A DNA stretch of 64,000 nt. It comes from Malacoraja senta (taxonomy: Eukaryota). A model generated the notes under the pieces. It was not told the origin of the DNA and ran no database searches. It saw nothing but the letters and a program-made list of their open reading frames with translations. Below are positions 1 through 2,335 of this stretch, one piece after another. The stretch spans positions 9,054,001 to 9,118,000 of the forward strand of contig CM075991.1 in the NCBI GenBank assembly GCA_038087875.1. The letters are read 5' to 3'. Positions within the stretch are counted from its first letter, which is position 1. Every line of letters starts with the position of its first letter. The position numbers and the translations under genes were made by a program.

Positions 1-208
1 TATACTTGTCACTCGTGACAGTAACCCATGCTTCTTTAAACAAGTGTAATCTCCCCCCTGTTAGTAAAGCACCCTTATTCTCTATATGCTGGCAGGAACC
101 AGACCCACCTACCTCCATGGTTATTGGTGTTTCTTTTGTTTCCTGAGGTTTTTGTACGGTTTGTTTGTCTGACGTGCTGGCGATGTTGGGGGGTGGCGCA
201 TTTTCCAT
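1..208 (-). CDS. DIRS ORF2 (RT/RNase H) N-terminus, partial; in-frame ATGs at 208 and 118; -1 frame relative to gag
   Basis: Manual translation gives MENAPPPNIASTSDKQTVQKPQETKETPITMEVGGSGSCQHIENKGALLTGGRLHLFKEAWVTVTSDKY, open to the window edge. Absent from the ORF track because there is no stop in the window. Confidence 0.75.
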   Translation of the reverse strand, partial: MENAPPPNIASTSDKQTVQKPQETKETPITMEVGGSGSCQHIENKGALLTGGRLHLFKEAWVTVTSDKY

Positions 209-1422
209 GGGGTCCGCTGTGGGCCCTGATCTAAAAAAGATCTTTGGGGATAAAATGCGGTCCCCGAGCTTTCACCAGTCCCATATTGAGGATGTCGACT
301 GGTGGATGCCATGGGGTGCTGCCGCTTGGGTATTGCAGCTCTTGGTTTGCTCGTCCCGGGGCCTGCCCTCATGAGGCCGAATGTTTTCGCTGCTTCCTCC
401 ATGTCCCTCAGTTTTTTATTGAGGTCTTTCCCAAATAACAGAGCATCCGTCTCTGCAGCTGGGGCTCTGCACAACCCAGCAAATTTGGGATTGAGGGCAG
501 GTCTTATGTTTTCGCGCCGGAGATTGTTGATTTCAAATTGTGTGTTGCACATCAGTGCCAGCACATCCTGCTGGCACGTATCCATCTCCGTACTATCCAC
601 AGAACGAGCAAAGGCTGTTATGGCTGACGTCAGGAGCCTCAGGATCCGCTGTAGCTTGACTTCATGGTTACGCATGTTTGACCCCACGTGCCCCCAGATC
701 TGGCTGTTCACAGTCTTCACTCTGAGGGCCTCACAGTTCTCTGGTGCTGTGTACAGTTCAAGCGCCTCTAGCAGTACCTTCTCCTGCAAGGGCTTATTTG
801 ATAGATGATTTATGCTGGCCGCCATTTTTGGTTCCAGCGGTCTTCCAGCACGTGGGGTTGCTACATAGCGGTCCACGACACCCAGCAGCTCTTCCTGCTC
901 CTGCACCCCTTGCATACCGCCGAATTCGTCCGCCAGCCCCTGTTCCAGACCAGCCCAACCCTGGTCACCAATGCTAGCCTCCAGTAATGAGGGAGCAGAG
1001 GGCAGTGCACAAGACACTGTGGAGGAGGTGCCTGACCTACCTCCGCGGGAACGCTCCTTCTGCGCATCCCGCTGGAGCATCTGCTCCAAGAGCTGTTGTA
1101 AGCTCTGGCAGCTGTCTCTCCTCCGTTTCGGTGGAGACATGTCCCACTCCGACGAATCAGAAATGACCGGCCGGATACTTTTTCTCATGGCTTTCCTCCC
1201 TGTCCGCTGTGCAGGCATTAGCGGGACTGGGCTCGGCTCGGTCTCGGGGATAGCGGAGCGCTCTATGTGCGTTCCTGCCGCCTGTTGCTGTCCCCCTGCG
1301 ATTGAACGCTCCTCTGGTGGAGATGAGCTGGGGGCAGTTCTCTTCGAGAGTCTTTTCTTTTGTGAACTCATTTCGTAAGTACACGTCTTTAACTCTCCTT
1401 CTCCGTTAGATAACTTCAGCAT
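121..1422 (-). CDS. DIRS ORF1 gag-like protein, 433 aa, uninterrupted
   Basis: Low-complexity N-terminus, then DIRS-gag-like blocks (LRVKTVNSQIW, KLQRI, EINNLRRENIRPALNPKFAGLC, LLFGKDLNK); lies directly upstream of the RT-type ORF. Confidence 0.8.
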   Translation of the reverse strand: MLKLSNGEGELKTCTYEMSSQKKRLSKRTAPSSSPPEERSIAGGQQQAAGTHIERSAIPETEPSPVPLMPAQRTGRKAMRKSIRPVISDSSEWDMSPPKRRRDSCQSLQQLLEQMLQRDAQKERSRGGRSGTSSTVSCALPSAPSLLEASIGDQGWAGLEQGLADEFGGMQGVQEQEELLGVVDRYVATPRAGRPLEPKMAASINHLSNKPLQEKVLLEALELYTAPENCEALRVKTVNSQIWGHVGSNMRNHEVKLQRILRLLTSAITAFARSVDSTEMDTCQQDVLALMCNTQFEINNLRRENIRPALNPKFAGLCRAPAAETDALLFGKDLNKKLRDMEEAAKTFGLMRAGPGTSKPRAAIPKRQHPMASTSRHPQYGTGESSGTAFYPQRSFLDQGPQRTPWKMRHPPTSPARQTNKPYKNLRKQKKHQ

Positions 1423-1504
1423 ACTTACCCAACGGTCCGTCTTTTAAACTGCAGCCGGAGCGCCTTCCTCCAGCTGCCGCCGCTGTTGCACTGCTGGCGT
1501 AATG

Positions 1505-1553
1505 CCGCGCCTGCGCACTGAGCGGGTTCTTCACGAAGTCACTCACGTGACTC
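1505..1553 (-). promoter_or_regulatory. Candidate internal promoter motifs in DIRS terminal repeat (E-box GTCACGTGA; NRF1-like TGCGCAGGCGCG)
   Basis: Both motifs are seen directly in the CpG-rich terminal region; function is inferred. Confidence 0.35.
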
Positions 1554-1705
1554 CGAAGTAAAATCTGTAGGCTCCTTTGGTGCAGCTGCAAGTACTAACA
1601 CTCAGACTGAAGTCAAACTTGCAATGGGAAACTTGTTACCGAGGGCATTCTGGAATTGACAAGGTTTATCTGCTACAAACAAAGCCTCAAACACCTACCA
1701 ACAGT

Positions 1706-1999
1706 GAGCGGCACGGTGGCGCAGCGGTGGAGTTACTGCCTTACAGCGCCAGGGACCCCGGTTCGAACCTGACTTTGTGTGCTGCCTGTATGGAATTTGT
1801 ACGTTCCCCCCGTGACCTGCGTGGGTTTTCTCCAGGTGCTCCAGTATCCTCCCACACTCCAAAGACGTACAGGTTACTTGGCTTGATATAAAATGCAAAT
1901 CATCCCTAGTGTGTGTAGGATAGCGTTAGTGTGCGGGGACCGCTGGTAGGCGAAGGGCCTGTTTCCGCGCTGTATCTCTAAACTAAAATAAAACTAAAC
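1706..1999 (+). mobile_element. HE1-type tRNA-derived SINE (full length)
   Basis: A-box TGGCGCAGCGG, B-box GGTTCGAACC, central GTACGTTCCCCCCGTGACCTGCGTGGGTTTTCTCC domain, CR1-like tail GAAGGGCCTGTTTCC...(TAAAC)n. Confidence 0.9.
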
Positions 2000-2335
2000 A
2001 GTGCATAAAGGTTCACTTCAATGCATCTGTTCACTCCTCCTGAACATCGGTGCGGATGTGGAAGAAAATTACTGCCTGCCTTTCAATCCTGACCTCACTG
2101 TGAACTGGTTACCACCAGTCAATTCTGAGCGGAAGAGTTTTATGAGTGCACAGTGCATGGTTTAATGAGACATCATGCGTTGTGAAGGTGGGAAGAGAGC
2201 AGATATCTGAGGACCAAAGGTGAGGGTAGACTAATTAAAGACCCCATGAAACATATGACGAATTTTGGCATCTTACCAACACATCTCTGATCCAATTCTG
2301 AGGCATGGTGGCGCAGCGGTAGAGTTACTGCCTTA

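What the first reader, a model, noticed from the sequence alone, without database searches (positions are those of the whole stretch)
118..1430. DIRS gag-pol junction has an in-phase U UUU UUA slippery site that is also a splice acceptor, with a donor abutting the gag ATG
Seen: gag reads TCT TTT TTA GAT, so the heptamer T TTT TTA (238-232) is in X XXY YYZ phase. The -1 frame opens only ~11 codons upstream (TGA near 273) and stays open through ATG 208, ATG 118 and the GGRL..F...W RT motif. The same bases read TCTTTTTTAG| (AG at 232-231), and a perfect donor G|GTAAGT (1428-1423) sits immediately before the gag ATG. Splicing between them would delete gag and make ATG 208 (pol frame) the first AUG after the junction. 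Known: UUUUUUA is the HIV-1 -1 frameshift heptamer. Inference: one short motif could allow pol expression by frameshifting, by splicing, or both.
Basis: partly seen in the sequence, partly recalled or inferred. Interest (0 to 1): 0.7.

Follow-up and report, generated by a model that had tools for sequence, protein, structure and literature searches.

The report
Conserved frameshift site in DIRS retrotransposons
A jumping gene from a skate-like fish carries, near the end of its first gene, the same seven-letter ribosome-slip signal that HIV uses, and distant relatives keep it at the same spot, which suggests how these elements make their copying enzyme.

Summary
All coordinates check out. The window holds the 5' end of a high-copy DIRS-like retrotransposon.

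The site is conserved. Gag relatives below 50% identity (skates, echinoderms, unnamed) keep x-F/Y-L-x about 38 residues before the stop in 102 of 111 testable tails. Two sea-urchin models crossing the site in the -1 frame force exactly T TTT TTA G and show no AUG between it and the gag stop. That favours -1 ribosomal frameshifting over splicing plus pol's own AUG.

The ATG abutting the donor reads ATA in 77-87% of family depth, so gag probably starts at 1371. The codon upstream of the motif is purine-rich, unlike a strong acceptor.

Against frameshifting: no stimulatory structure here, and no expression data.

New lead: both urchin models leave pol just after the gag stop and join the recombinase; a donor-like site lies there (112-107).

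Earlier scan notes proposed splicing in other DIRS-order elements; none covered this gag or site.

The parts
1528..1564 (-). Left end of the element (begins ATT at 1564); terminal 37 bases shared with sister families
   Evidence: loose ends behind 1564 in 110, 96 and 2 contigs of runs X1-X3, and before 1527/1528 in 72, 50 and 43 contigs; DIRS1-like elements mostly start ATT (PMC3266345, passages)
1423..1428 (-). Consensus splice donor GTAAGT in the 5' leader; partner acceptor unknown
   Evidence: no variant listed at 1421-1430 among the 40 of 73 variant places shown; use not shown
1420..1422 (-). ATG abutting the donor; minority allele, most family copies read ATA
   Evidence: place 1420: 6563.6/8517.9 (X1) and 669.7/767.9 (X2)
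121..1371 (-). gag-like ORF1 from its probable start ATG 1371 (416 aa) to TAA 123-121
   Evidence: relatives linked to a tyrosine recombinase
272..274 (-). Last stop codon (TGA) in the pol (-1) frame, 11 codons before the heptamer
232..238 (-). In-phase U UUU UUA heptamer (gag S-F-L); candidate -1 frameshift site
   Evidence: conserved in 102 of 111 testable relatives; codons forced in decoded families
231..232 (-). AG ending the same motif; candidate splice acceptor
   Evidence: use not shown; another AG lies 11 bases upstream
2..238 (-). Start of the pol (-1) frame, F-F-R-S-G... through GGRLHLFKEAW (58-26), running off the window
   Evidence: motif matches the gag-to-pol protein P0063 at 10/20
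206..208 (-). ATG in the pol frame inside the overlap (C at -3, G at +4); not conserved across the clade
   Evidence: only 35 of 102 gag tails have the W or C that such an ATG requires
116..118 (-). ATG in the pol frame 2 bases after the gag stop, strong context (A at -3, G at +4)
107..112 (-). Second donor-like site GAG|GTAGGT, 8 bases after the gag stop, phase 0 in the pol frame; candidate donor for splicing to the recombinase ORF
   Evidence: models P0204 and P0104 leave the pol frame within about 10 codons after the gag stop and enter the YR; motif class at chance frequency in the window (10 vs 9.3)

Best explanation
This is the gag-pol junction of a DIRS-like tyrosine-recombinase retrotransposon. 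Pol is most likely made as a Gag-Pol fusion by -1 ribosomal frameshifting at U UUU UUA (238-232). Most ribosomes read on about 38 codons to the gag stop; a minority slip back one base and continue F-(F/L)-R into pol. Shown here: the motif, its phase, the open -1 frame, and their conservation across a wide clade. Inferred: that ribosomes slip there, and how often. The leader donor at 1428 may be real, but its partner need not be this AG.
For: (1) Of 150 listed representatives at the 50%-identity level, 132 had a locatable core end and 111 a tail of 75 or more residues. 102 of these 111 carry x-[F/Y]-L-x in frame, 100 of them 28-50 residues before the C-terminus (three mis-picks corrected by hand, two off-frame false hits dropped). 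(2) The residue before F is P, S, A, H, N, T, G or R, all codable with a final T. It is never K, E, Q, M or W: 0 of 25 non-Pro cases against 24% background, p about 0.001 if families were independent, which they are not fully. (3) P0204 (S. purpuratus) and P0104 (gag part 100% identical to Diadema P0210) cross the site in the -1 frame, compatible with their gag at 43/43 and 48/48 residues (shuffle maxima 19 and 22). Each forces CCT TTT TTA GG. They were first picked out by their recombinase part and then by a search for FF[RS], so they are not a blind sample. (4) P0082 and P0098 cross in the +1 frame (18/18 and 14/18 compatible; 0 of 200 shuffles reach that) and end L-F-stop, forcing T TTT (T/C)TA G. 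(5) There is no -1-frame AUG between heptamer and gag stop in either decoded urchin family, and 67 of 102 tails lack the W or C such an AUG needs. P0063 reads in the -1 frame of its family (9/11) on into GGRL with no Met. (6) The codon before the motif is F/L/P/S in 7% of families against 22% background, and the stretch 25 to 11 bases before the AG is 33-40% pyrimidine in the decoded families. This is not an extended acceptor tract. (7) No length variant of the T run is listed among family copies (table 4). (8) U UUU UUA is the shift site of HIV-1 and alphaviruses, and U UUC UUA drops it below 0.5% (PMC2569925 passages; PMC3561942 passages).
Against: No stimulatory structure is evident here. 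The 47-102 bases downstream fold worse than their shuffles (z +1.5 to +2.4), and the HIV heptamer alone gives only about 0.1% per codon (PMC3561942 passage). The decoded urchin overlaps give modest hairpins only (z -0.8 to -2.0, one of 24 or 48 possible decodings). The next residue begins with G in 97 of 102 families, as an AG acceptor would also require. This family has two pol-frame AUGs, so it does not need a frameshift. The Leu is invariant partly by construction of my search; one of the nine tails without it (P0048) has E-F-P-A near the place and could not be decoded. One family member reads P-Y-L-A (heptamer broken, AG kept). Five off-frame proteins (P0012, P0065, P0145, P0154, P0092) fit the motif by position but did not pass the frame test. 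No divergent DNA was obtained; the DNA-level claims rest on the window and four decoded families. P0063's V-E-V aligns with this copy's M-E-V and could be a decayed start. No expression data.
Confidence: 0.6

Rival explanations
1. The motif is mainly a splice acceptor. An intron from the leader donor (1428) to the AG (231) removes gag, and Pol starts at AUG 208 or 118. In other families an upstream exon would have to bring the AUG.
For: A consensus donor lies in a 136-base leader with no AUG before it. The residue after F-L begins with G in 97 of 102 families, and F-L-S and F-L-R (4 more) could keep an AG one base along. Both pol-frame AUGs follow the AG in this family. Earlier scan notes propose spliced expression in other DIRS-order elements (unchecked).
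Against: A pure acceptor would not need a fixed phase in gag, or T rather than C before the AG (recalled: CAG is the commoner acceptor). No F-S-G, F-P-G, F-I-G or F-V-G is seen at the site (one unclear case). The upstream codon is purine-rich. There is no downstream AUG in the overlap of the decoded urchin families. One relative reads F-L-N, which has no AG there.
Confidence: 0.15
2. Both mechanisms act at the same bases in this family: frameshifting for Gag-Pol and occasional splicing for a free Pol. This overlaps with the best explanation rather than excluding it.
For: All elements for both routes are intact in this copy, and no variant is listed at 229-240 or 1421-1430 among the 40 of 73 places shown.
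Against: Nothing here shows use of the acceptor. G after the heptamer is equally explained by a conserved Gly or by the first -1 codon; departures from Gly change the first base (5) about as often as the second (7).
Confidence: 0.2
3. P-F-L-G is a protein motif of the Gag tail or an RNA signal unrelated to translation, and Pol is made by reinitiation at AUG 118, two bases after the gag stop.
For: The tail holds other conserved peptide motifs. TAA-CC-ATG with A at -3 and G at +4 is a stop-start arrangement. No stimulatory structure.
Against: A protein motif does not fix synonymous bases, yet the same codons are forced in the window and in four decoded families. P0204, P0104 and P0063 show no Met just after the gag stop.
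Confidence: 0.17
4. Chance co-occurrence of short motifs in one genomic copy.
For: Each motif occurs at chance frequency in the window. This remains a fair reading for the two donors.
Against: Clade-wide conservation of the heptamer position and codons.
Confidence: 0.04

Closest known systems
HIV-1 gag-pol -1 programmed ribosomal frameshift (U UUU UUA)
   Same: Same heptamer in the same phase, near the 3' end of gag, with pol overlapping in the -1 frame.
   Different: No stable stem-loop about 8 bases downstream in this copy; the host element is a tyrosine-recombinase retrotransposon, not a retrovirus.
Alphavirus 6K/TF frameshift (PMC2569925, passages)
   Same: U UUU UUA conserved as the dipeptide F-L and found by comparative analysis; 3' stimulators differ widely between species.
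   Different: Cytoplasmic RNA virus with no splicing; the transframe product is short.
DIRS1-like retrotransposons (PMC3266345, PMC9210276, PMC5633606; passages or one section read)
   Same: gag-like ORF1, overlapping downstream ORF, start on ATT, recombinase in relatives, many insertions.
   Different: The passages searched describe ORF overlaps but no slippery site or expression route for ORF2. This Gag clade does not match LAP2alpha (0 of 88).
Ngaro elements, proposed frameshift between RT/RH and YR (Poulter and Butler 2015, seen only as a quotation in PMC13003380)
   Same: Programmed -1 frameshifting was suggested as probable within the DIRS order.
   Different: That proposal concerns the pol-YR overlap of Ngaro and names no site in the quoted passage; here it is the gag-pol junction with a specific conserved heptamer.

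Membership tests
DIRS-like YR retrotransposon | gag-like ORF1 followed by an overlapping pol ORF | tested here: met
   the pol label rests on the N-terminal motif and recalled architecture
DIRS-like YR retrotransposon | Tyrosine recombinase in the same element | tested here: inconclusive
   Outside the window. Relatives P0204 and P0104 join this Gag family to PF00589 above cutoff
DIRS-like YR retrotransposon | RT, RNase H and methyltransferase domains | not testable with these tools
   Window ends 79 codons past the heptamer; no genome held; 89-aa piece has no Pfam hit
DIRS-like YR retrotransposon | Starts with NTT, mostly ATT; dispersed multicopy | tested here: met
   left end ATT at 1564 with differing flanks in 110, 96 and 2 contigs
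DIRS-like YR retrotransposon | Inverted terminal repeats and internal complementary region (vs split direct repeats of PAT/Ngaro) | not testable with these tools
   3' end is outside the window; superfamily not settled
-1 programmed ribosomal frameshift site | X XXY YYZ heptamer in zero-frame phase | tested here: met
   in relatives
-1 programmed ribosomal frameshift site | Open -1 frame from the heptamer into the downstream gene | tested here: met
   P0204, P0104 open past the gag stop
-1 programmed ribosomal frameshift site | 3' stimulatory stem-loop or pseudoknot 5-9 bases downstream | tested here: not met
   z +1.5 to +2.4; modest hairpins only in decoded relatives; pseudoknots and long-range pairing not modelled
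-1 programmed ribosomal frameshift site | Measured frameshifting or transframe peptide | not testable with these tools
   needs reporter assay, profiling or mass spectrometry
U2-type intron 1428-231 | GT donor and AG acceptor with consensus context | tested here: met
U2-type intron 1428-231 | Extended polypyrimidine tract conserved in relatives | tested here: not met
   33-40% pyrimidine upstream in decoded families, 60% in this copy; preceding codon purine-rich
U2-type intron 1428-231 | Junction reads | not testable with these tools
   no RNA holder listed

The most novel reading that the evidence does not exclude
A wide clade of DIRS-like elements, from skates to echinoderms, uses one conserved U UUU UUA -1 frameshift to feed two enzymes. 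Unspliced RNA gives Gag and Gag-Pol. RNA spliced from a donor just after the gag stop to the recombinase ORF gives Gag and Gag-recombinase through the same slip. This would explain how all three ORFs are made. It rests on two gene models of unknown RNA support (P0204, P0104) that leave the pol frame within about 10 codons after the gag stop and enter the YR at the same residue, in frame with -1, each after a different frame-changing gap inside gag. In P0204 no Met precedes the recombinase's N-terminal domain. A third model (P0123) also departs from this family's sequence at the donor-like site at 112.
Probability: 0.3. Interest if true: 0.8.

Novelty: new variant of a known kind. Interest (0 to 1): 0.62.

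Why it matters
How DIRS-order retrotransposons translate their overlapping second and third ORFs is not stated in the papers I could search. A specific heptamer conserved in about a hundred divergent families makes the question directly testable with a standard reporter. It would extend Gag-Pol frameshifting to a fourth kind of retroelement and correct many gene models that bridge the frame change with a gap. The apparent lack of a 3' structure would make it a natural test of what else stimulates slippage at U UUU UUA.

Tried and rejected
No genome is held for the window, so the 3' part of the element and paralogue DNA could not be read.

No RNA holder was listed. The three laid runs are contigs of unrecorded kind that behave like genomic DNA. 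They show no 230/1429 joint, which says nothing about splicing.

DNA of divergent relatives was sought without success: viral contigs (none), prokaryote genomes (none), metagenomes (one decayed copy, L001, with no usable junction). The broad alignment A2 was too divergent for pattern search. Searches for longer proteins found none (with the pol piece, with A2).

The Atlas gave unnamed eukaryotic clusters and a LAP2alpha lead at 0.89 with a low recognition value; not used as support. Pfam gave no family for Gag. Column conservation in A2 was not used for counts because I chose its members by eye.

The first motif tally took first matches and included false picks; it was replaced. Five off-frame proteins that fit by position failed or narrowly missed the frame test and are not counted as decoded.

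The supplement of PMC3266345 was cut before its sequence archive; element sequences there could bear on conservation.

Rejected: that the donor abuts the true gag start; that GGRL..W is itself an RT motif; that rarity of the motifs in the window supports function.

Full report
What is there. The first 1564 bases of the window hold, on the - strand, the 5' part of a repeated element. Contigs of three public runs stop matching at 1564 with differing flanks (110, 96 and 2 contigs), so the element begins there, on ATT. DIRS1-like elements mostly start with ATT (PMC3266345, passages). A gag-like ORF runs 1422-121. Its closest named relatives, at 42-75% identity, are from skates. Relatives in sea urchins are joined in gene models to a phage-integrase-family recombinase (P0204, P0104). 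The RT, the repeats and the 3' end lie outside the window and no genome is held, so the superfamily is likely but not proven.

Observation. Three corrections follow. The motifs are individually common (GGTAAGT 6 vs 7.0 expected, TTTTTTAG 4 vs 3.5). ATG 1422 reads ATA in 77% and 87% of laid depth in runs X1 and X2, and P0001 and P0003 start where ATG 1371 does. The donor therefore sits in the leader about 50 bases before the gag start, not against it. The GGRL..F...W motif is shared with a gag-to-pol protein but has no Pfam hit; calling the frame pol rests partly on recalled DIRS architecture.

Conservation at protein level. A profile search found 2823 relatives at E up to 0.001 among 50%-identity representatives and listed 150. 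The core end could be located in 132 and 111 had a tail of 75 or more residues. 102 of these carry x-[F/Y]-L-x in frame, with a median of 38 residues to the stop (I corrected three mis-picks by hand and dropped two off-frame false hits). The other nine are a host fusion, a truncated protein, a gag-to-pol join, four off-frame readings and two that I could not decode. First position: P 77, S 13, A 4, H 3, N 2, T, G, R 1 each. None is K, E, Q, M or W, which cannot end in T (0 of 25 non-Pro against 24% background). Fourth position: G 90, D 4, S 3, E 2, N, R, A 1 each. Of 30 proteins looked up, the named ones are from skates, sea urchins and a brittle star; the rest are unnamed.

Conservation at DNA level, by decoding. 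No divergent DNA was found, but proteins that cross the site in another frame fix the bases. P0204 against its gag P0026, and P0104 against P0210, are compatible with a -1 reading at 43 of 43 and 48 of 48 residues (shuffle maxima 19 and 22). Each forces CCT TTT TTA GG. Their gags are 36% and 29% identical to the window's and 42% to each other. P0082 and P0098 cross in the +1 frame and end L-F-stop, forcing T TTT (T/C)TA G. Five more off-frame proteins fit by position but did not pass the frame test. P0123, from the sister skate family, switches from gag into the -1 frame inside the T run (15 of 16 compatible).

Frameshift or acceptor. Both readings predict the motif; they differ elsewhere. Splicing with a free Pol needs an AUG after the AG. 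Neither decoded urchin family has one in the -1 frame before the gag stop. 67 of 102 tails lack the W or C it would require. P0063 runs into GGRL with no Met, though its V-E-V could be a decayed M-E-V. An acceptor needs no fixed phase in gag and should tolerate C before the AG (recalled), yet no F-S-G or F-P-G is seen. The codon before the motif is pyrimidine-poor: F/L/P/S 7% against 22%. These points favour frameshifting. For the acceptor: the base after the heptamer is G in 97 of 102, and this family has a consensus leader donor and two pol-frame AUGs. Against efficient frameshifting: the downstream RNA folds worse than shuffles, decoded relatives show only modest hairpins, and the HIV heptamer alone gives about 0.1% per codon (PMC3561942, passage). 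Alphaviruses use the same heptamer with very different 3' stimulators (PMC2569925, passages), so a missing simple hairpin weakens but does not end the case. AUG 118, two bases after the gag stop in strong context, allows reinitiation as a further rival in this family.

A lead beyond the finding. P0204 and P0104 stay in the -1 frame a few codons past the gag stop and then enter the recombinase at the same residue, each after a different frame-changing gap inside gag. The exact junction is uncertain within about 10 codons. The window has GAG|GTAGGT at 112-107, eight bases after the stop and in phase 0 of the pol frame. P0123 departs from the family sequence at that point. If these joins are real, one frameshift would serve both Gag-Pol and Gag-recombinase. 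The models' RNA support is unknown, they may not be independent, P0104's source was not looked up, and the same 10 bases also occur inside gag. I give it 0.3.

What is known. Ten literature searches listed no title on a DIRS gag-pol slippery site; (DIRS, ribosomal frameshift, slippery, retrotransposon) returned none. Passages searched in PMC7192593, PMC5633606 (section 8 read), PMC6681497, PMC3266345, PMC4157794 and PMC9210276, and parts 1-2 of 3 of PMC4495291, describe ORF overlaps but no route for ORF2 expression. The first 300,000 of 449,034 characters of the frameshifting review PMC5009743 do not mention DIRS. PMC13003380 quotes Poulter and Butler 2015 that frameshifting is probable for the Ngaro YR ORF. 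The three Poulter and Goodwin papers were not read and may already note this site. Earlier scan notes propose splicing in other DIRS-order elements and report no canonical heptamer for the recombinase of an amoebal element; none matches this Gag. I did not test them.

Verdict. A -1 frameshift is the best explanation (0.6); use of the same bases as an acceptor is unproven. New variant of a known kind, interest 0.62.

Noticed in passing
window 1529-1558 (- strand): The element's left end folds into a hairpin around a TCACGTGA palindrome (-14.2 kcal/mol for 1565-1525); only the terminal 37 bases are shared with sister families.
   Followed up: no
window 1035-1044 and 107-116: The same 10 bases, a donor-like context, occur inside gag and just after the gag stop.
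   Followed up: partly
window 58-285: Summed contig depth is higher here than over most of gag in X1 and X2, as if more sister families match the overlap; summed depth is a poor measure.
   Followed up: no
Gag tails, P0010-P0153: Two further conserved peptide motifs lie before the F-L site: R/Y-F/H-x-P-Y and A-G-W. The first resembles a PY-type nuclear import signal (label recalled, not tested).
   Followed up: no
window 201-199 (- strand): A gag-frame ATG with A at -3 lies 7 bases after ATG 208 and would compete with AUG 118 on a spliced RNA.
   Followed up: no
window 1690-2000: A dispersed repeat with dozens of 73-96% copies across the window lies just upstream of the element; SINE-like by recall.
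   Followed up: no
P0005, P0040: Gene models that fuse this Gag core to unrelated domains (precomputed Pfam domains for P0005; DUF7886 for P0040); probably annotation joins.
   Followed up: no
L001 2802-3130: A decayed gag copy with a stop codon, in a 5-kb metagenome contig; the tail with the motif is lost.
   Followed up: yes
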